A stretch of DNA of 62,375 nt. Source: a bacterium. GTDB lineage: Bacteria; Patescibacteriota; Minisyncoccia; Phycocordibacterales; PALSA-1337. The notes below the pieces were generated by a model, which was given only the letters and a program-made list of their open reading frames with translations, was not told the DNA's origin and ran no database searches. The stretch is taken from the NCBI GenBank assembly GCA_021782175.1, contig JAJXVL010000001.1, positions 1-62,375 on the forward strand, given 5' to 3'. Numbering within the stretch: position 1 is the first letter of the stretch; the number at the start of each line of letters is the position of its first letter. Of the stretch, positions 80 to 47,160 are shown one piece after another. The position numbers and the translations under genes are program-made.

Positions 80-590
80 AGTACCAGTGACGCATTGTTC
101 TTTTGAGACAAAACGAATCTGCCAGACCTTCACCGATTGTTTCGTCTCGACCTTCGGCTTCGGCTCAAAAGAATAATGTGTCACTGGTACTTGAGTTTGT
201 GCCCAGACCCTTAGCCCCATCAATAGTAGTTTCTCGGAGAGTAGTTGTACCCTTAGTGGGAACTCTACTTAGGCCGATTATTCGGCTGAAGGAATACATT
301 TGAGACTACTGATCCCGCTGGGAAGTTCCCACTAAGGGTACAGCTACTCTCCTAGTAATACAGTCTCTCAAAAACTCTATTGATGGGGCTTTGGTATTGG
401 ATTCACTGATTAGTAGTCCTGAAAGTCCTAGAAGCATTGGAGAGGGACTTCAATGTTCGGTCGAAAGGACCCTGCGAGCGCGACTGGCGCGAGCATAGAG
501 GAGATTCCCAGCAGGGAATTTCCGTGTCCTGGAGACCGAATATTGAAGTCCCATGATGCTTCTGGGGCTAAAGTAAGGATTGTGCCTGAT
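80..590. repeat. Mosaic nested-palindrome intergenic repeat cluster, locus L1. It contains a 28-bp hairpin (80-107/164-191), P arms near 213-240/364-390 enclosing Q arms 237-263/325-351, a G spacer at 391-425, and a D multi-helix module at 427-567.
   Basis: The arms were read directly from the sequence. Region 213-567 is the reverse complement of 32339-32682 with few differences. Confidence 0.85.
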
Positions 591-11212: not shown

Positions 11213-11557
11213 CACTTCTCTGTAGAAGCTCTCAACCCAAGCCCCATCCCTAGTAGTTTTTGAGAACCCTGCGGAACTCGCTACGCTCCCGCTCCGCTCA
11301 GACAGTCCTCGGTCTCTCAAAAACTCTAGGAATGGGGCTTGGGGTAGTGACTAACCATATCCATTCCTCTACACCAAGCAACAGTCTCTCTCGTGTGTCT
11401 CATAGCCCAATGCTTCTAGGGCTAACTTGGTTTAATAATATTTCAAGTGAGTTCCCACTAGGTACAACCAGTTCCCCGAGAAACTACTATTGATGTGGCT
11501 AGGTCTGGGTACGCTTAAGTTAAGCGGAGTCCTCACTAAGATTACAGAGTACTCTCC
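11213..11557. repeat. Mosaic nested-palindrome repeat cluster, locus L2. It contains a P hairpin in reverse orientation at 11241-11338, a D right arm, a Q right arm + P right arm, and the tail.
   Basis: It shares modules with 24963-25087, 27911-28035 and 28050-28110, read directly from the sequence. Confidence 0.8.
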
Positions 11558-13745: not shown

Positions 13746-14979
13746 GAGTTTTGGTTCCTTGGGCTTTGAGCTCGGTAGCTGACAGAGTAGGGTGGTCATA
13801 CCAAGCCGCCGCCAAGGCAATCATCAGAGCATTGTCACCAGTGATTTGGTGATCCGGTAGGAAAACAGGTATGCCAAGTTTGGCGGCAGTGATCACAAGT
13901 CTATTACGGATCCGAGTATTAGCCGAAACACCGCCGCCCAGGATGATTGTTCTGGCTCCAGTCACTTCTATAGCTCTGGATAGTTTGCTTGCCAATACTT
14001 CGGTGACAGCCAGTTCAAATTCCAAGGCCAAGGCTTTTTTGAAATCTTCAGACATCAAGCCTTTTGTGTCGAGGGGTGCTTCTCGCACAGCATAGAGTAC
14101 AGCTGTTTTCAGACCAGAAAAAGAGAAGTCACAATCTTCGCTATGGATCATAGGGCGTGGCAGTTTGACTGGACTCTCCAGGCCCAGATCTTCGGCCTGA
14201 CGAGCCCAGAGAGAAAGATGCGGTCCGCCTGGATATGGCAGACCAAGCAGGCGTGCCGCCTTGTCGAAAGCTTCACCGACGGCATCATCACGAGTTTGAC
14301 CAATGATCTGATACTGACCCGGACTGTTTACGGTGACTAGTTCCGTATGTCCGCCGCTTATGAGCAAGGCTATCGCTGGCCACTCTGGTACAGCCAGCTT
14401 CTGCCAAGTAGTGGCTCGGATCTTGTCTGACCACAAGGAACCGACGATATGACCTTCCATATGGTTGATCGGTACGACGGGGCACTGCCAGAGTTCTGAG
14501 AGCAGACGTGCGAAGTTGATTCCCACCCACAAGGCCGGTTCTAGACCGGGTCCCTCGGTGACGGCAATCAGCTCAATCGGCCAAATTTTTTCTTTCAGGA
14601 AATGAGCCGCGGCAAAAGTTTCGAACAATTCTGGATTTTGCGGCGACACCTCGGAGCGGTTCATGTCTATGGTGTCTTGGAAATTTTTGGCCAGATCAGC
14701 CAGTACTTGTTTCTCGATTGATTCCTTGTTTTCTGTTTCAGGCCAACCAGCCTCAGAGGCTTTGAGGAACAATTGATGCAAGAGTGGCACTAGATTGTGT
14801 CCGTGCTCGCGTTTGGCAAGCGATGGGTAGACCCCGCCATAGGCTGAGTGCAGATCAGCTTGGGAATGTACCAACGAAGCCAAGACACGGCATTCCGGCT
14901 GGCCTTGTTGGTCTAGACGCTTCTCAATCAGAGCCAAAGCGGTCTCGTCGCATGATGTTTCAATACCTAAAATAATCAT
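13726..14979 (-). CDS. tsaD: tRNA N6-adenosine threonylcarbamoyltransferase TsaD (Kae1 family) with an internal insertion
   Basis: It has GIETSCDET at the N-terminus and an HMEGH motif. It is 417 aa, against roughly 340 aa for typical TsaD. Confidence 0.88.
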   Translation of the reverse strand: MIILGIETSCDETALALIEKRLDQQGQPECRVLASLVHSQADLHSAYGGVYPSLAKREHGHNLVPLLHQLFLKASEAGWPETENKESIEKQVLADLAKNFQDTIDMNRSEVSPQNPELFETFAAAHFLKEKIWPIELIAVTEGPGLEPALWVGINFARLLSELWQCPVVPINHMEGHIVGSLWSDKIRATTWQKLAVPEWPAIALLISGGHTELVTVNSPGQYQIIGQTRDDAVGEAFDKAARLLGLPYPGGPHLSLWARQAEDLGLESPVKLPRPMIHSEDCDFSFSGLKTAVLYAVREAPLDTKGLMSEDFKKALALEFELAVTEVLASKLSRAIEVTGARTIILGGGVSANTRIRNRLVITAAKLGIPVFLPDHQITGDNALMIALAAAWYDHPTLSATELKAQGTKTLNEPRV

Positions 14980-24832: not shown

Positions 24833-25125
24833 ATATCGGAGAACAGGTTGTCTGTCGGAGAGTAGCTGTACCCTTAGCGGGAACTCCACTTGAAATATCA
24901 TTAAACCGAGTTAGCTCTAGAAGCATTGGGACTTCAATGCTTCTAGGGCTTTCAGGACTGCCAATCAGTGAATCCAATACCAAGGCCCCGTCAATAGAGT
25001 TTTTGAGAGACCGAGGACTGTCTGAGCGGAGCGGGAGCGTAGCGAGTTTCGCAGGGCTCTCAAAAACTACTATTGATGGGGCTAAAGTCTGGGTGCGATT
25101 AAGTTAAGTAGCAGTACTCAAGTAA
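24833..25125. repeat. Mosaic nested-palindrome repeat cluster, locus L3. It contains left Q-type arms at 24833-24893, a short D hairpin at 24917-24947, and G + P hairpin + tail at 24963-25125.
   Basis: 24963-25087 matches 27911-28035 at 124 of 125 positions (hand comparison). Confidence 0.88.
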
Positions 25126-25143
25126 ATCTTATGGTAATTACGA

Positions 25144-25755
25144 CTAGTGTCGATTCTGTAGAGCATTCCTGATGGTTTCGTTGTCGGCGTATTCGAGTTC
25201 GGCCCCAGTTGAGAGACCGCGCCCGAGGACGGTGACCTTCATGTTTGGTATATTTTTCTGCAGAGCCGCATGTACTATTTCTGCCGTGTGCTCGCCGTCG
25301 GGGGTAGTATTCAAAGACAGGATAATTTCCTTGAGCTCGGTATTCTGACGCACCTGATCCAAGAGTTTTTGGAGCCTGATTTTCTTGTCGGGTTCCTGAT
25401 CGAGGATCGGTACCGTCCCACCCAAGATGAAATAGAGACCTTTGTAGGCGCCACTTTTCTCAATGGATTCAAAATCTACATCGCGAGCTACGATCATCAG
25501 TTTTTCATGATCGCGTGCGGCATCAGTGCAAATATTGCAGTCCGCGGCACCGGTAGTCGTTTTACCGGCCAAGAAGAAGCGATGACAGACGGGACATTCA
25601 GTACTGTTTTGTTTGACGGCCATCACCAAGTCAGCGAATTCCTTCACGGTGCTTTGCGAGCGGCTGAGGAGATAATAAACAAAGCGCCTGGCTTGGCGTG
25701 GTCCGATGCCCGGAAAATGAGCGAAGATTTCCTCCAGCCGACGCAGGTTGTCCAT
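25144..25755 (-). CDS. recR: Recombination protein RecR
   Basis: It has an HhH N-terminus (LPGIGPRQARR), a Cys4 zinc finger (CPVCHRFF...CNIC) and a Toprim region. Confidence 0.9.
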   Translation of the reverse strand: MDNLRRLEEIFAHFPGIGPRQARRFVYYLLSRSQSTVKEFADLVMAVKQNSTECPVCHRFFLAGKTTTGAADCNICTDAARDHEKLMIVARDVDFESIEKSGAYKGLYFILGGTVPILDQEPDKKIRLQKLLDQVRQNTELKEIILSLNTTPDGEHTAEIVHAALQKNIPNMKVTVLGRGLSTGAELEYADNETIRNALQNRH

Positions 25756-25776
25756 AGGGTAATCTTAGCGGCTAAA

Positions 25777-27159
25777 TCAAACCTTGTCGAATTCTCCGAA
25801 GTCGGCCTTGTCCACTGACAGGAAGGTGGTCTTCTTGGTATCGAAGTATAGTTTGACCGTACCGGTTGGGCCGTTACGATGCTTCTCAATCAGGATCTCG
25901 GCTTCTTCCTTGCGGCCGCCTTGGTCCTGGTCGGCTTCGCGGTGAATGAACATGACCACATCAGCGTCTTGTTCGATGGAGCCAGAATCACGCAAGTCTG
26001 AGAGGCGTGGTTTGCCGCCACGCTGTTCTACCGCACGAGAGAGCTGAGACAGCGCCAGGACGGGCACCTCGAGCTCACGAGCCATGTTCTTGAGCGAGCG
26101 GGAAATTTCGGTGACTTGCTGGACGAGGTTGTCATTGTAGCGGCCGGCATTGGTTGGCACCATGAGTTGCAAATAGTCTACGACGACCAAGCCCAAGCCT
26201 TTCTCGGCCTTGAGACGGCGTGCCACAGCGCGCATTTTGATGATGTTGTTGCCCGGCTGATCATCGATATATATAGGTGCCTCGGAGAGACGGCTGATAG
26301 CGTCGCCAATAGCCTTGAAGTCATTCTCGACCGAGAGATTGTGACCAGTACGCAATTTCCAAGCATCGACATGAGACTCGGCGGCCAACATACGATCTAC
26401 CAGCTGTTGAGAGCTCATTTCCAGGGAGAAGATGGCTACCGGCACCTTGTGGTTGACGGCGGCTTTGCGGGCAATATCGAGCGCTAGGGAAGTCTTACCC
26501 ATAGAGGGTCGAGCCGCTAGGATGATCAGATCTGATTTCTGGAAGCCGGCCAACTTGCCGTCAATTTCCTGGAAGCCGCTCGGCACGCCGCGGAGCTCGT
26601 TGCGGGTATTGTGCAAATGATCAATGCGTTCCCAAGCTTCATCCAGCGTATCCTTCAAAGCGACAAACTTGTGTGAGCCGGTTTTGTTGGTGACGGCGTA
26701 GAGTTCCTTCTCGGCTTTTTCCAAAAGGTCATGCAGATCAGCTTCTTCCTCATAGCCGAGCCCGCTGATGACTTCGGCGGCACGGATGAGTTCACGCATA
26801 ACATGCTTCTTCTCGACAATTTCCGCATAATAGCTGGCATTGGTGGAAGAAGGTACCGTGTTGATGAGCTCAGTCAAATAAGTCATGCCGCCGATGTCTT
26901 CTAGTTGGCCTTTTTCTTTGAGACGAGCTGAAACAGACAGGAGATCAATCGGGGTGTTCTTGTTATGCAATTCCGAAAGCACGCCCCAGATCTGCCGATG
27001 GCTGGTGGCGTAGAATGACTGTTCATGCACTACATCCATGACATCATGCATGGCTTCACCACGAATCATAACTGAGCCCAAAAGTGCTTTTTCGGCCTCG
27101 AGATTTTGAGGTGGAATCTTCAGATCGCGGGCTTTGAGATAGGGTGAAACGGGGGCCAT
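25777..27159 (-). CDS. dnaB: Replicative DNA helicase DnaB
   Basis: It has PPQNLEAEKALLGSVM at the N-terminus and Walker A ARPSMGKTS. The start was trimmed to MAPVSPYL. Confidence 0.92.
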   Translation of the reverse strand: MAPVSPYLKARDLKIPPQNLEAEKALLGSVMIRGEAMHDVMDVVHEQSFYATSHRQIWGVLSELHNKNTPIDLLSVSARLKEKGQLEDIGGMTYLTELINTVPSSTNASYYAEIVEKKHVMRELIRAAEVISGLGYEEEADLHDLLEKAEKELYAVTNKTGSHKFVALKDTLDEAWERIDHLHNTRNELRGVPSGFQEIDGKLAGFQKSDLIILAARPSMGKTSLALDIARKAAVNHKVPVAIFSLEMSSQQLVDRMLAAESHVDAWKLRTGHNLSVENDFKAIGDAISRLSEAPIYIDDQPGNNIIKMRAVARRLKAEKGLGLVVVDYLQLMVPTNAGRYNDNLVQQVTEISRSLKNMARELEVPVLALSQLSRAVEQRGGKPRLSDLRDSGSIEQDADVVMFIHREADQDQGGRKEEAEILIEKHRNGPTGTVKLYFDTKKTTFLSVDKADFGEFDKV

Positions 27160-27403
27160 ATTTTTGTTTTGATGTTTTGATTGTAACACAATGCTACTAG
27201 CACCCAAGACTTGAATCTGGAACTACATAGGGGAAAAACTGTGGATGATTAGAGACTGATTTTTTCATCAGCTTTTGAGGCAAAATGCACGGAAAATTGA
27301 GTCTTTTTTGAGAAATATTTGAATGTGATCTTGCTAAAGTGCCGCTATTATTTGTTAATCGCGATTTGTTTGAGTCCAAGACTTCGATCGAATCGCCGCC
27401 ACT

Positions 27404-27664
27404 ATGTCTCTAGAACAAAAGGATATTGAGTGCTTGGAACGAGTTATTTACAAAAATAGTGATGATATTGCCGTGTCCATCGGACGTAGCTTCGAGCGAT
27501 TGGAGGAGAGGATTGATGCTGTGGAATCACGCATTTATAGTCGACTCAATGATCTCGAGGAAAAAATCGAATCCGCCAGACAAGATTTGGCTGATGAGTT
27601 CGGTGAAGTCAAAGCTGAATTGCGTGAACTGACTAGGCTTGATAGGGAAGTCGAGGCGGATTAG
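27404..27664 (+). CDS. Small acidic coiled-coil hypothetical protein
   Basis: An 86-aa ORF with heptad-like charged repeats. I recognise no family. Confidence 0.4.
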   Translation: MSLEQKDIECLERVIYKNSDDIAVSIGRSFERLEERIDAVESRIYSRLNDLEEKIESARQDLADEFGEVKAELRELTRLDREVEAD

Positions 27665-28186
27665 TTACATTAGTAGTTTTTCCAGAGAAAATGTGTTTTT
27701 TGGAGGATAACCATTTCAATCTGATGAGCCCTCAGGTAGTTGGTCTCTAATAGCCCTAGAAGCATTGGGGTTCTGAGACACGCTGTCGGCACGGCCATCG
27801 TGTCGCAGCTCGTGCTCGCCGACGCGAGGAAATAGACATGATAATGTTCGATGTGCGTCGGCTCCGCAAGGTCTCATCACCCCAATGCTTCTATGTCTTT
27901 CATGAGTAATAATCAGTGAATCCAATACCAAGGCCCCATCAATAGAGTTTTTGAGAGACCGAGGACTGTCTGAGCGGAGCGGGAGCGTAGCGAGTTTCGC
28001 AGGGCTCTCAAAAACTACTATTGATGGGGCTAAAGGTTCCAGGATGTTCTAAGCGAAGTTCCCACTAAGGGTACAGCTACTCTCCGAGAAACTACTATTG
28101 ATGGGGCTAAAGGTTTCAGGATGTTCTAAGTAGAGTTCCCACCAGGGTACAACCTGTTCTCCGACAGACAACTTGTTATCCGATAT
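27665..28186. repeat. Mosaic nested-palindrome repeat cluster, locus L4. It contains the E leader, D arms at 27753-27770/27879-27895 with a ~110-nt loop, G + P hairpin at 27911-28035, and a tandem ~72-nt tail/Q-right/P-right unit x2 at 28014-28160. It ends with Q-type right arms at 28126-28186.
   Basis: All modules were read directly from the sequence and are shared with L1-L3, L5 and L6. Confidence 0.88.
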
Positions 28187-32299: not shown

Positions 32300-32715
32300 A
32301 ACTTCACTAGAGAAGCTCTCAGGTAGTCAGTCTCGAATAGCCCCAGAAGCATCAGGGGACTTCAATATTCGGTCTCCAGGACACGGAAATTCCCTGCTGG
32401 GAATTTCCTCTATGCCAGGCAACAGTCGCGCTCGCAGGGTCCTTTCGACAGAACATTGAAGTCCCCTGAGGATTTGAGGTATTTCAGCAGCGAATCAATA
32501 CCAAAGCCCCATCAATAGAGTTTTTGAGAGACCGTATTGTTAGGAGAGTAGCTGTACCCTTAGTGGGAACATTCCCAGCGGGATCAGTAGTCTAAAATGT
32601 ATTCCTTCAGCCTAATAATCGGCCTAAGTAGAGTTCCCACTAAGGGTACAGCTACTCTCCGAGAAACTACTATTGATGGGTCTAAGGTCTGGGCGCGATT
32701 AAGTTAAATGGAGTT
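32300..32715. repeat. Mosaic nested-palindrome repeat cluster, locus L5. It contains the D multi-helix module at 32339-32470, the P stem enclosing the Q hairpin at 32505-32682, and the tail.
   Basis: It is the reverse complement of 213-567 with scattered substitutions. Confidence 0.88.
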
Positions 32716-32726
32716 CCTATTTCCTG

Positions 32727-32775
32727 AATAAAAAACAGATCAACCTTTATGGGTCGACCTGTTTTTTTGTTTTTC
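32727..32775. terminator. Bidirectional rho-independent terminator candidate (11-bp imperfect stem flanked by A-run and T-run)
   Basis: The sequence is AAAAACAGATCAACC-TTTATG-GGTCGACCTGTTTTTTTGTTTTT, located downstream of rpmA on the minus strand. Confidence 0.6.
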
Positions 32776-46894: not shown

Positions 46895-47098
46895 AAGTCA
46901 TTAGTTTTTCCAGATCCTTAGTCCCGTTAGTATTAGTTTCTTAGAAAATAAGTTGTTTTTCGGAGAACAGGTTGTACCCTTGTGGGAACTCTACTTAGGC
47001 CGATTATTCGGCTGAAGGAATACATTTTAGACTACTGATCCCGCTCTAGAATGTTCCCACAAGGGTACAACCTGTTCTCCTCACAACTGCTCGGTCTC
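46895..47098. repeat. Mosaic nested-palindrome repeat cluster, locus L6. It contains the E leader and a Q-variant hairpin at 46961-47080 with the same ~60-nt loop as L1/L5.
   Basis: The arms GGAGAACAGGTTGTACCCTTGTGGGAAC / GTTCCCACAAGGGTACAACCTGTTCTCC are perfectly complementary. They differ from the L1 arms at paired positions. Confidence 0.85.
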
Positions 47099-47132
47099 TC
47101 AAAAACAAAAGTCTCCTCGAAAGGAGACTTTT
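47099..47132 (-). terminator. Rho-independent terminator downstream of rpsI (9-bp stem AAGTCTCCT/AGGAGACTT, then TTTTGTTTTT on the minus strand)
   Basis: The sequence was read directly. Confidence 0.75.
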
Positions 47133-47160
47133 GGAATTTGATGAAAATGAAGCGACTTCC

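What the first reader, a model, noticed from the sequence alone, without database searches (positions are those of the whole stretch)
27665..28186. A modular family of nested palindromic elements fills six intergenic spacers
Six loci are assembled from the same small set of modules, in varying order and orientation: 80-590, 11213-11557, 24833-25125, 27665-28186, 32300-32715 and 46895-47098.

The modules are:
- P arms: GCCCCATCAATAG..TTTTTGAGAG / CTCTCAAAAACT..CTATTGATGGGGC
- Q arms: GAGAGTAGCTGTACCCTTAGTGGGAAC / GTTCCCACTAAGGGTACAGCTACTCTC
- D arms: CCTAGAAGCATTGG / CCAATGCTTCTAGG
- spacer G: AATCAGTGAATCCAATACCAA
- a tail: GGGGCTAAGGTCTGGG.GCGATTAAGTTAA
- leader E: TAGTTTTTCCAGA

Together the loci sum to about 2.3 kb. 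They occupy nearly every long spacer in an otherwise tightly packed window, mostly at gene 3' ends or between convergent genes. The window has no transposase or integrase, and the spacing is not CRISPR-like. The small ORFs inside the copies are not conserved between copies.

The elements could be REP/BIME- or MITE-like, or a family of structured RNAs. I do not recognise the sequence as any named family.
Basis: seen in the sequence. Interest (0 to 1): 0.75.

Follow-up and report, generated by a model that had tools for sequence, protein, structure and literature searches.

The report
Mosaic palindromic DNA repeats in CPR
The intergenic gaps of this tiny-genome (Patescibacteria) bacterium hold mosaics of hairpin-forming DNA repeats like the REP/BIME and ERIC repeats of E. 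coli, and one module belongs to an undescribed element with a nearly invariant 55-nt T-shaped core found in about 50 related genomes.

Summary
All seven modules recur at the six stated loci in both orientations, with chance expectation near zero, and independent assemblies of the same species reproduce them. At least four more loci lie outside the window.

The organism is a Patescibacteria (Paceibacteria-type) MAG. The elements are non-coding. They match no Rfam family, plasmid or phage record, and they are not TIGR or CRISPR arrays.

- **Design:** every module is a long, near-perfect stem enclosing two or three mini-hairpins.
- **Arrangement:** modules are nested and concatenated like BIMEs, and all abut gene 3' ends.
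- **H element:** H is a three-way junction with a ~55-nt core that is almost invariant in ~50 Patescibacteria MAGs. Its arms differ in every copy but stay complementary.

Covariation in H is very strong and almost purely Watson-Crick. Orthologous copies show mirrored arm changes and a flipped core. There are no target-site duplications and no linked protein gene. P and Q are restricted to this lineage and a sister lineage.

Best reading: these are REP/BIME/ERIC-like palindromic repeats acting at the DNA level, read as folded single-stranded DNA by an unidentified factor. A structured-RNA role is less likely. This is a new family of a known kind.

The parts
80..191 (.). Separate inverted repeat in locus A. 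Arms are 80-112 and 159-191 (33 nt, 88% complementary). It is not shared with the other loci.
   Evidence: I21
199..239 (-). Locus A: tail remnant plus a P arm (the reverse complement of a P right arm starts at 214).
237..351 (-). Locus A: Q hairpin. Arms are 237-263 and 325-351, with a ~61-nt loop holding two mini-hairpins.
   Evidence: (I18)
365..411 (-). Locus A: P arm (365-389) and G spacer (391-411).
427..567 (-). Locus A: complete H-family element. The outermost 'D' arms are 427-440 and 553-567, and the long stem is 444-470 with 526-552. It has the internal loop TCTCCA/TTTCGA. The three-way-junction core is 461-536 (69 bits).
11240..11343 (-). Locus B: 104-nt P element. It has 25-26-nt arms with a conserved 1-nt bulge and a 46-nt GAGCG-rich interior.
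   Evidence: (I2, I3)
11364..11420 (-). Locus B: decayed H remnant. 11364-11393 is 83% identical to E 32405-32434, and a single D arm lies at 11407-11420.
11450..11557 (+). Locus B: Q-arm variant, P right-arm variant (11473-11501), tail, and a second degenerate Q-like arm.
   Evidence: (D5)
24833..24884 (-). Locus C: Q2-like fragment plus a Q arm (24858-24884). It is inverted with respect to 28112-28186 (75 nt, 76% complementary).
   Evidence: (I10)
24913..24950 (.). Locus C: D arms closed on a 4-nt loop. This is an H-family element whose interior has been deleted between ATTG repeats. The allele in the 97% strain L015 carries a full H element.
24963..25107 (+). Locus C: G spacer (24963-24983), P element (24980-25083) and tail (25078-25107).
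   Evidence: (D1)
27674..27750 (+). Locus D: 'leader E' (27674-27686) and a module shared with locus E (27727-27770 is 84% identical to 32314-32357).
27751..27898 (+). Locus D: divergent H-family element. D arms are 27755-27768 and 27882-27895. The frame is GAGAC-AC-[GC-rich hairpin 1]-T-CGTGCTCGC...[expanded hairpin 2]...CTCCGCAAG-GTCTC, with the 3' loop motif TCACCCC.
   Evidence: fold, z -7.3; sequence read against the consensus
27911..28031 (+). Locus D: G spacer and P element (27928-28031).
28005..28186 (+). Locus D: two tandem 77-nt units, each [P right arm - linker - Q arm]. They are 28005-28081 and 28082-28158, 79% identical. The Q arms start at 28058 and 28135.
   Evidence: D7
32314..32478 (+). 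Locus E: shared upstream module, degenerate D arms, and an H element. The H stem is 32357-32383 with 32438-32465. The core is 32372-32448 (46.9 bits) and its hairpin 2 is decayed.
32488..32707 (+). Locus E: G-like spacer, then a P left arm (32506-32530) enclosing a Q hairpin (32543-32660, 28-nt perfect arms), then a P right arm (32657-32682) and the tail (32678-32707).
   Evidence: (I24)
46902..47107 (+). Locus F: leader E (46902-46914), a Q2-type hairpin and a P-arm fragment (47094-47107). The Q2 arms are 46963-46989 and 47053-47080, and both arms carry the same variant sequence. The fragment abuts the S9 terminator at 47106-47133.
   Evidence: (I13)

Best explanation
The six loci are BIME-like mosaics of non-coding palindromic DNA repeat units in a Patescibacteria genome. 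Three kinds of unit (P, Q and H) share one design: a 25-35-bp near-perfect stem, carrying a conserved bulge or internal loop, that encloses two or three mini-hairpins.

**What is shown**
- The units are nested in one another's interiors and concatenated.
- They sit in spacers that abut gene 3' ends, or lie inside operons.
- Whole ~340-370-nt composites have been copied to new sites.
- Interiors are swapped or deleted between strains.
- H belongs to a family found in many Patescibacteria MAGs. Its ~55-nt three-way-junction core is nearly invariant, while its arms evolve freely but in concert.
- The asymmetric H core can flip between the arms.

**What is inferred**
- The active form is a folded single strand of DNA, the strand reading CTTGCGAGCGCGACTGGCGCGAGC.... 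It is exposed during replication and recognised through the invariant GC-rich hairpin 2 and the conserved bulge and loops.
- The factor that reads it acts in trans and is not yet identified. An HUH/Y1-type or recombinase-type enzyme is a candidate.
- Arms are kept complementary by intra-palindrome templated correction or by selection for the hairpin.
- Spread and reshuffling occur by that factor and/or by recombination and template switching between copies.
- Effects on transcripts, where long stems lie between a stop codon and its terminator, would be by-products, as for REP, ERIC and Correia elements.
For: **Multi-copy and real**
- Independent assemblies reproduce the loci.
- At least four further loci exist outside the window: L214 7338-7674, L214 9804-10185, and the paralogous junction copies in L003 and L011.

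**Non-coding and unmatched**
- No Rfam family, no tRNA, no plasmid or phage match.

**Common hairpin design**
- DNA folding gives z-scores from -6 to -11.6 for all modules.

**H structure**
- 92.9% of cells are paired, against 76% in shuffles and 34-53% in slid controls.
- 22 of 29 pairs change on both sides, and one-sided (G-U type) changes are close to 0.
- Hairpin 2 also covaries in divergent members.

**H distribution and context**
- About 85 copies with the exact 21-mer were found in about 50 Patescibacteria MAGs, with up to 8 per MAG.
- Arms are unique to each copy, with a median of 19 bp and up to 39 bp of ungapped pairing.
- 45 of 50 copies with both neighbours known abut a gene 3' end. 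Both orientations occur.

**Evidence for a DNA-level, strand-specific form**
- Orthologous copies upstream of dnaB in L128 and L147 have homologous arms with mirrored substitutions, but a flipped core.
- Arm mismatches are A:C 44 against G:T 13 (p = 5e-5), and the excess follows core orientation, not gene direction.

**Recent dynamics**
- In the 97% strain L015, the same P frame holds a Q hairpin instead of the 46-nt interior, and H is full length where the window has a collapsed stub.
- Contigs break or switch partner inside elements.
- The sister lineage REEB178 carries a copy 93-95% identical to the window's, beside a gene that is only 85% identical.
Against: - No mobilising enzyme has been identified. 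No Y1/RAYT gene lies in the window or in 2.1 Mb of other CPR loci.
- The one IS200 TnpA of this species has end hairpins unlike P, Q or H.
- There are no target-site duplications and no demonstrated empty site, so transposition itself is not shown.
- Copying of composites and swapped interiors could arise by recombination or gene conversion alone.
- The near-invariance of the H core across genomes of 28-58% GC is more than a purely selfish repeat needs. It hints at a host or RNA function that I could not test.
- The elements lie inside transcription units (between stop and terminator, or between secY and adk), so they are probably transcribed.
Confidence: 0.62

Rival explanations
1. The elements, H above all, are functional structured RNAs. 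They would be cis-acting 3'-UTR or intercistronic elements, or small RNAs, whose long stems and conserved loops are bound by a conserved CPR RNA-binding protein or an RNase. Their role would be to control mRNA stability, processing or termination.
For: - Covariation supports a three-way junction very strongly.
- The core, including its unpaired loop nucleotides, is nearly invariant across many genomes.
- Elements lie inside transcription units. Locus E sits between the L9 stop and the terminator at 32727-32770. A same-species copy lies between adk and secY. 45 of 50 copies abut a gene 3' end.
Against: - Both orientations occur relative to co-directional genes, 21 against 12.
- Orthologous copies are flipped relative to dnaB.
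- G-U intermediates are essentially absent from covarying pairs, which is unusual for an RNA family.
- The wobble-tolerant strand is fixed by the core, not by the sense strand. Where the top strand is sense, A:C outnumbers G:T by 18 to 4.
- Perfect 25-39-bp duplexes would be RNase III substrates.
- T-runs after the arms are barely enriched: 13% on the top strand and 21% on the bottom strand, against a 10% background.
- No Rfam family matches.
Confidence: 0.2
2. They are classical MITEs or PATEs. On this reading they are deletion derivatives of an autonomous insertion sequence, for example the IS200/IS605 element present in this species, and its transposase moves them by cut-and-paste or peel-and-paste.
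For: - The arms look like terminal inverted repeats, and the copies are dispersed.
- An intact IS200-type TnpA exists in the same species.
- Conserved bulges and mismatches in the stems resemble the features that Y1 transposases read. This rests on established knowledge of IS608 and REP/RAYT and was not tested here.
- The H deletion in locus C is bounded by ATTG repeats, as a precise excision would be.
Against: - There are no target-site duplications.
- H arms differ in every copy, even within one genome. Transposition of a defined unit would not produce that.
- The IS200 end hairpins are unrelated to any module.
- No TnpA lies near any of about 80 H copies.
- The ATTG-bounded deletion is explained equally well by slippage across a hairpin.
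Confidence: 0.12
3. The pattern is an assembly artefact or a purely local duplication within this contig.
For: Contigs end or change partner inside the repeats, and one join (L001) could be chimeric.
Against: - The same loci are recovered at about 100% identity from at least 8 independent assemblies or samples.
- Copies occur on other contigs (L214) and in a sister lineage (L218).
- The H core occurs in about 50 other MAGs.
Confidence: 0.01

Closest known systems
REP / BIME (REPIN) elements of Enterobacteria and Pseudomonas, with their RAYT (TnpA-REP) enzymes
   Same: - Extragenic and multi-copy, and found in both orientations.
- Imperfect palindromes with conserved asymmetric features.
- Assembled with linker motifs into mosaics, including tandem [arm-linker-arm] units (28005-28158).
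- Located after stop codons and inside operons.
- Act as hot spots for rearrangement.
   Different: - The units are much larger, 100-140 nt with branched interiors, against 20-40-nt simple hairpins.
- No RAYT gene was found.
- H has a core conserved across many genomes but copy-specific arms. REPs are species-specific and uniform within a genome.
ERIC / IRU elements (~127-bp imperfect palindromes of Enterobacteriaceae and Vibrio)
   Same: - Long imperfect palindromes in transcribed intergenic regions.
- Low to moderate copy number.
- Sequence conserved across genera, with internal insertions that create size variants.
- Function still unclear.
   Different: - I did not align the elements against the ERIC consensus, so lack of sequence similarity is not shown. 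Judged from memory of that consensus there is none.
- ERIC is conserved along its whole length. H conserves only the central three-way junction, while the arms are free.
- H shows a flipped core.
Correia elements (NEMIS), neisserial intergenic mosaic elements, and pneumococcal BOX elements
   Same: - Modular intergenic repeats that form long hairpins when co-transcribed.
- Mosaic order of sub-modules: boxA-B-C, or RS and dRS3 units.
- Strain-to-strain presence and absence.
   Different: - Correia elements have fixed 26-bp terminal repeats and a TA target duplication. No target duplication is seen here.
- No module was compared by sequence with Correia or BOX elements, so lack of similarity is not shown.
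T-shaped terminal hairpins of parvoviruses (AAV ITR). This is a structural analogy only.
   Same: - A long stem closed by two small hairpins, forming a three-way junction.
- GCTC/GAGC-rich recognition stem.
- The asymmetric tip exists in two orientations (flip and flop).
   Different: - The elements are chromosomal, internal and dispersed. They are not genome termini.
- No Rep or HUH gene is linked.
- The resemblance comes from memory of the AAV ITR and was not tested.

Membership tests
REP/REPIN-RAYT system | Short extragenic imperfect palindromes, present in many copies and clustered in inverted or tandem arrays (BIME/REPIN) | tested here: met
   At least 10 loci in about 90 kb. All are intergenic, and inverted and tandem arrangements both occur. 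The units are 3-5 times longer than a typical REP and are branched.
REP/REPIN-RAYT system | A RAYT (Y1 HUH transposase) gene in the genome, itself flanked by the REP sequences | tested here: inconclusive
   No Y1 gene lies in the window or in 2.1 Mb of other CPR loci. One same-species contig carries an IS200-type TnpA (NF033573, 106 bits), but its flanking hairpins differ from P, Q and H. The whole genome was not available to scan.
REP/REPIN-RAYT system | Conserved 5' tetranucleotide (GTAG-type) next to the palindrome, serving as the cleavage site | tested here: inconclusive
   Q arms contain GAGAGTAGCTGTACCC, which includes GTAG. H has a conserved internal loop (T)TCTC / TTCAAC. Whether either is a cleavage site cannot be told from sequence.
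MITE | Terminal inverted repeats of constant sequence among copies | tested here: not met
   This feature is met for P and Q within this species. It is not met for H, whose arms differ in every copy, even within one genome.
MITE | Target-site duplication flanking each copy | tested here: not met
   The direct repeats at the arm ends of 71 H copies are 0-3 nt long, as expected by chance. None is seen at the composite boundaries.
MITE | A related autonomous element with the same ends | tested here: not met
   None was found in the window, the same-species contigs or the other CPR loci. The sampling is incomplete.
Rfam structured RNA families | Match to a curated covariance model at its gathering score | tested here: not met
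   The window gave 0 hits at gathering threshold. Locus A and a canonical H copy gave only chance miRNA or snoRNA hits with E above 0.2.
TIGR arrays (TIGR-Tas) | Tandem ~36-nt units of two alternating 8-12-nt repeats with 9-nt spacers, next to a Nop-domain Tas gene | tested here: not met
   The definition is taken from PMC12045711. No such tandem units and no Tas gene are present; the flanking genes are housekeeping genes.
CRISPR array | Regularly spaced identical direct repeats separated by unique spacers | tested here: not met
   The repeats are inverted or nested, irregularly spaced, and dispersed over 47 kb.
H element (family defined here) | Three-way junction with a bulged AT-rich hairpin 1, an invariant GC-rich hairpin 2 (GCTCGCGCCAGTCGCGCTCGC) and a long closing stem | tested here: met
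   The covariance model R1 was built only from other genomes. It scores window 461-536(-) at 69 bits (E = 1.5e-17) and 32372-32448(+) at 46.9 bits (E = 4e-11). Locus D 27751-27898 fits the frame by inspection only.

The most novel reading that the evidence does not exclude
The H element is a previously unrecognised cis-acting nucleic-acid element spread across the Patescibacteria MAGs sampled. It is a T-shaped three-way-junction hairpin whose ~55-nt core is held nearly invariant in genomes of 28-58% GC, because a conserved and still unidentified CPR protein reads it as folded single-stranded DNA in a strand-specific way. Its arms co-evolve by palindrome self-correction and its core flips. It would then be a host-integrated or domesticated recognition site, for example for replication restart or priming, recombination or an HUH enzyme, rather than junk. 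Its recurrence next to dnaB, recR and priA-like genes may be meaningful.
Probability: 0.25. Interest if true: 0.8.

Novelty: new variant of a known kind. Interest (0 to 1): 0.62.

Why it matters
**Genome biology.** CPR/Patescibacteria genomes are about 1 Mb, tightly packed, and generally regarded as poor in repeats and mobile DNA. Here palindromic mosaics fill almost all non-promoter spacers. They occur about once per 9 kb, which extrapolates to a few percent of the genome.

**Practical consequences.**
- The mosaics coincide with contig breaks and partner switches, so they limit MAG contiguity.
- They may drive rearrangements, such as the recR-dnaB cassette.
- They generate spurious gene calls that have entered public protein databases.

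**The H element.** H gives a clear, testable object.
- It is an undescribed element found in about 50 Patescibacteria MAGs, with an almost invariant branched core.
- Its arms are hypervariable but self-complementary.
- Its core shows flip-flop.

Identifying the factor that reads H could reveal a CPR-specific activity that processes DNA or RNA. H also offers a natural system for studying how long palindromes are maintained and evolve in concert in reduced genomes.

Tried and rejected
- **Rfam.** Gathering threshold on the window, and permissive thresholds on locus A and on a canonical H copy, gave nothing.
- **tRNA or tmRNA in the window.** None found.
- **Exact Q-arm scans.** 0 hits in the GTDB representative genomes and 0 in the JGI metagenomes. 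The Q-loop 29-mer also gave 0.
- **H core in IMG/VR.** One chance hit, lacking hairpin 1.
- **Plasmid and phage collections.** No match.
- **TIGR array idea.** Rejected against the published definition.
- **'H is inserted into intrinsic terminator loops, or is itself a terminator'.** Rejected. T-runs are barely enriched. L018 copies lie in divergent promoter spacers. In the window, canonical terminators lie beside the elements, not around them.
- **Target-site duplications.** None.
- **Linked protein gene.** 256 neighbouring ORFs fall into 218 clusters and no transposase recurs.
- **Strict orthology of the window's H copies with those of the nearest relative L018.** Rejected. They are in adjacent spacers, not the same ones.
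- **First stem-extension script.** It used a wrong anchor distance and was redone.
- **One Pfam call.** It failed on a frame error. The reading frame was fixed.
- **Literature.** Six searches found no description of these elements.
- **Not available.** ISfinder and Dfam could not be searched.
Full report
**1.

Reading the six loci, the repeat finder and a sensitive self-BLAST all show the same modules, in both orientations, at 80-590, 11213-11557, 24833-25125, 27665-28186, 32300-32715 and 46895-47098.

Counting each named module with a few mismatches gives 2-6 copies each. Between 0.0 and 0.57 are expected in composition-matched random sequence.

The largest relationships are these.
- Locus A 201-570 is the reverse complement of locus E 32338-32694 (89% over 372 nt).
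- C 24935-25087 and D 27883-28035 are 95%-identical direct repeats.
- A 104-nt 'P element' is present three times.
- The 'Q hairpin' has 28-nt perfect arms in A, E and F.

A crude gene map gives about 92% coding. The four longest spacers plus the window's 5' edge carry elements. Every element-free spacer of 200 nt or more is a divergent spacer.

All loci abut at least one gene 3' end.
- Three lie between convergent genes: L21/RecR, 86-aa ORF/CysS, and L9/L27.
- The others lie between co-directional genes.

**2. Organism, and proof that this is not an artefact**

The flanking genes are housekeeping genes: priA-like, hisS-like, recR, dnaB, cysS, L9, L27, grpE and S9. DnaB's nearest relatives are Patescibacteria (Paceibacteria/Parcubacteria-type) MAGs, and the closest species representative is only 82% identical in protein.

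Looking up contigs that encode exactly the same L9 and RecR proteins returned 17 contigs. They come from three NCBI MAGs, several ENA assemblies and Logan runs, and match the window at about 100% identity. Independent assemblies span loci C, D and E.

Many contigs end inside the elements or switch partner there.
- L001 joins 25087 directly to 28036, which places L21 next to CysS without recR-dnaB.
- L011 joins the recR-dnaB segment to unrelated genes.
- L003 leaves the window in the tail of locus E.

At the L003 and L011 junctions the element sequence is only 88-92% identical to the window's copy. The assembler therefore ran into paralogous copies elsewhere in the genome.

**3. More copies outside the window**

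Gene callers annotate a 56-aa ORF across the D arm, G spacer and P element of locus C. Searching that peptide returned a 95%-identical 'protein'. Its contigs reveal two more loci on another contig of the same MAG.
- L214 7338-7674 is an A/E-type composite with an intact H core, lying against the ndk stop codon.
- L214 9804-10185 lies between adk and secY in the spc operon.

That makes at least 10 loci in about 90 kb. The ~340-370-nt composite itself is a copied unit: A, E, L214 and L015 are 86-93% identical to one another.

The ORF is broken by a stop in the locus D copy, so it is spurious.

**4. What the modules are**

With DNA folding parameters, every module forms a long near-perfect stem that encloses two or three mini-hairpins. 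The z-scores run from -6 to -11.6, and none of 200 shuffles folds as well.
- The P stem carries a conserved 1-nt bulge. The left arm reads AATAGAGTTTTT and the right arm AAAAACTACTATT.
- Units are nested: P arms enclose either a 46-nt GAGCG-rich interior or a whole Q hairpin.
- Units are also concatenated, including two tandem [P arm - linker - Q arm] units at 28005-28158 (D7).
- Where the Q arm varies (the Q2 type in locus F), both arms carry the same variant.

**5. The unexpected part: module H**

The only cross-species BLAST hit of the six loci was a weak 67-nt match in the nearest relative. That sequence is itself a long hairpin with a conserved interior and an entirely different stem.

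- About 85 copies lie in about 50 Patescibacteria MAGs, with up to 8 per MAG.
- About 30 hits lie inside genes of high-GC genomes, lack the rest of the element, and are chance matches.

The consensus is [arm]-AC-GGA(T)ATTTTTC-TGCT-GAAAAATTCC-T-CGTGCTCGCGCCAGTCGCGCTCGCAAG-[arm'].

On 69 distinct copies, the three-way-junction structure gives the following.
- 92.9% of cells are paired, against 76% in shuffles and 34-53% in slid controls.
- 22 of 29 pairs change on both sides.
- Virtually none change on one side only, so there are no G-U intermediates.

More divergent members found with a covariance model also covary inside hairpin 2.

The arms have a median of 19 bp and up to 39 bp of ungapped pairing, and they differ in every copy, even within one genome. 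A conserved asymmetric internal loop, 5' (T)TCTC opposite 3' TTCAAC/TTCGAC/TCACC, interrupts the stem.

The model was built only from other genomes. It finds exactly two copies in the window: 461-536(-) at 69 bits and 32372-32448(+) at 46.9 bits, the latter with a decayed hairpin 2.

The fold of 27751-27898 shows that locus D holds a third, divergent member with an expanded hairpin 2. Locus C holds the outer 'D' arms closed on a 4-nt loop.

**6. P and Q are lineage-restricted**

None of P, Q, G or the tail occurs in 2.1 Mb of other Patescibacteria sequence.
- Exact scans for the Q arm and the Q loop found nothing in the GTDB representatives or the JGI metagenomes.
- The P interior has one hit, in MAG REEB178.
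- That copy is 93-95% identical to the window's copies, although the adjacent gene is only 85% identical.

**7. Is it DNA or RNA?**

Several lines point to DNA.
- (a) Covariation is strictly Watson-Crick.
- (b) Relative to co-directional flanking genes, both orientations occur, 21 against 12.
- (c) L128 and L147 carry orthologous copies about 90-125 nt upstream of dnaB. Their arms are clearly homologous and their differences are mirrored on both arms, yet the asymmetric core is inverted. This is flip-flop, and a sense-strand RNA function should not tolerate it.
- (d) Arm mismatches are A:C 44 against G:T 13 in the CACGG...GCAAG orientation (p = 5e-5). The excess follows the core's orientation in every gene context: +H+ 12:3, -H+ 6:1, +H- 6:2 and -H- 6:5. 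The wobble-tolerant strand is therefore a property of the element, as it is for strand-specific single-stranded DNA substrates.
- (e) T-runs after the arms are barely enriched, so H is not a terminator.

Against this, the elements lie inside transcription units, and the loop nucleotides are invariant. An RNA role is not excluded, and I give it 0.2.

**8. Is it mobile?**

Classical MITE criteria fail.
- There are no target-site duplications.
- No autonomous partner was found.
- No protein family recurs beside H: 256 neighbouring ORFs fall into 218 clusters.
- No Y1 transposase lies near H in 2.1 Mb of sequence or in the window.

A same-species contig has an intact IS200-type TnpA, but its end hairpins are unrelated to the modules.

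Evidence of recent change does exist.
- The 97% strain L015 has a Q hairpin where the window has the 46-nt P interior.
- L015 also has a full H where locus C has a stub, and that deletion is bounded by ATTG repeats.
- Composites have been copied to new sites.
- The copies in the nearest relative L018 lie in spacers adjacent to those used in the window, not in the same ones.

Recombination, gene conversion and template switching between palindromes could account for all of this. An enzyme-driven route is an inference.

**9. Comparison with what is known**

The closest known kinds are listed below.

| Known element | Shared with the elements here |
|---|---|
| REP/BIME | Mosaic clusters; extragenic; asymmetric marks in the stems |
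| ERIC | Long palindrome conserved across genera; size variants created by internal insertions |
| Correia, BOX and neisserial mosaic elements | Modular order; hairpins formed in transcripts |

The T-shaped architecture, the GCTC-rich stem and the flip-flop recall parvoviral terminal hairpins. That is an analogy from memory, not a tested relationship.

TIGR arrays, which occur in CPR, are excluded by their published definition.

No Rfam family, plasmid, phage or paper matches.

**10. Verdict**

The finding is real.

The mosaics are a new family of a known kind. The H element is the part that deserves follow-up. It combines a core that is invariant across many Patescibacteria genomes, arms that are free but co-evolve, a core that flips, and a strand-specific mismatch bias. 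No factor that reads it is known.

Noticed in passing
L011 1646-2077 (same-species contig ena:ERZ27236847:k141_1644283): An intact 143-aa IS200-type transposase (NF033573, 106 bits). It is flanked by its own hairpins, CCCCAGAC-GCAA-GTCTGGGG and CCCCGCAG-GCTA-CTGCGGGG, which are unrelated to modules P, Q and H.
   Followed up: partly
window 25088-28035 (recR-dnaB-86-aa ORF): This 3-kb cassette is bounded by 153-nt direct repeats (95% identical) and by inverted Q arms. It is absent from contig L001, where L21 is joined to CysS. In L011 it is joined to other genes. L001 and L011 come from the same sample, whereas L010, L002 and L013 support the window's arrangement. Whether this is a real rearrangement or a mis-assembly is not resolved.
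   Followed up: partly
window 80-191: A separate inverted repeat with 33-nt arms (88% complementary). It is not shared with any other locus.
   Followed up: no
window 24937-25107; P0001: A 56-aa ORF spanning the D arm, G spacer and P element is called as a gene in public assemblies. It has a 95%-identical 'homologue' from the adk-secY copy. The frame is broken in the locus D copy, so these database proteins are spurious.
   Followed up: yes
L018/L098, L128 and L147 (upstream of dnaB); L133 and L023 (downstream of dnaB); window loci A, C and D: H-family elements recur next to replication and repair genes: dnaB, recR and a priA-like gene. In the 21-mer sample, 4 of 78 copies have DnaB as an adjacent ORF cluster. 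Shared ancestry explains at least the L128/L147 pair. A functional link was not tested.
   Followed up: partly
L148, L160, L129, L204, L157 and L118: Some H copies in other genomes carry extra hairpins inserted into hairpin 1, between the two hairpins, or after hairpin 2. Nesting is therefore a general habit of this family. The apical CTGCTG loop of hairpin 1 is kept even in the extended versions.
   Followed up: no
L214 1813-2179, about 820-1283, and 14004-14398: A tmRNA gene lies next to smpB (Rfam, 105 bits). A 460-nt GC-rich spacer has no Rfam match. An S14 gene between S8 and L5 appears uncalled (read by eye).
   Followed up: no
L218 2992-3235 (MAG REEB178): A sister-lineage copy of the collapsed-D/G/P composite is 93-95% identical to the window's copies. 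The neighbouring pilin-like gene is only 85% identical. The element is therefore either conserved or recently exchanged.
   Followed up: partly
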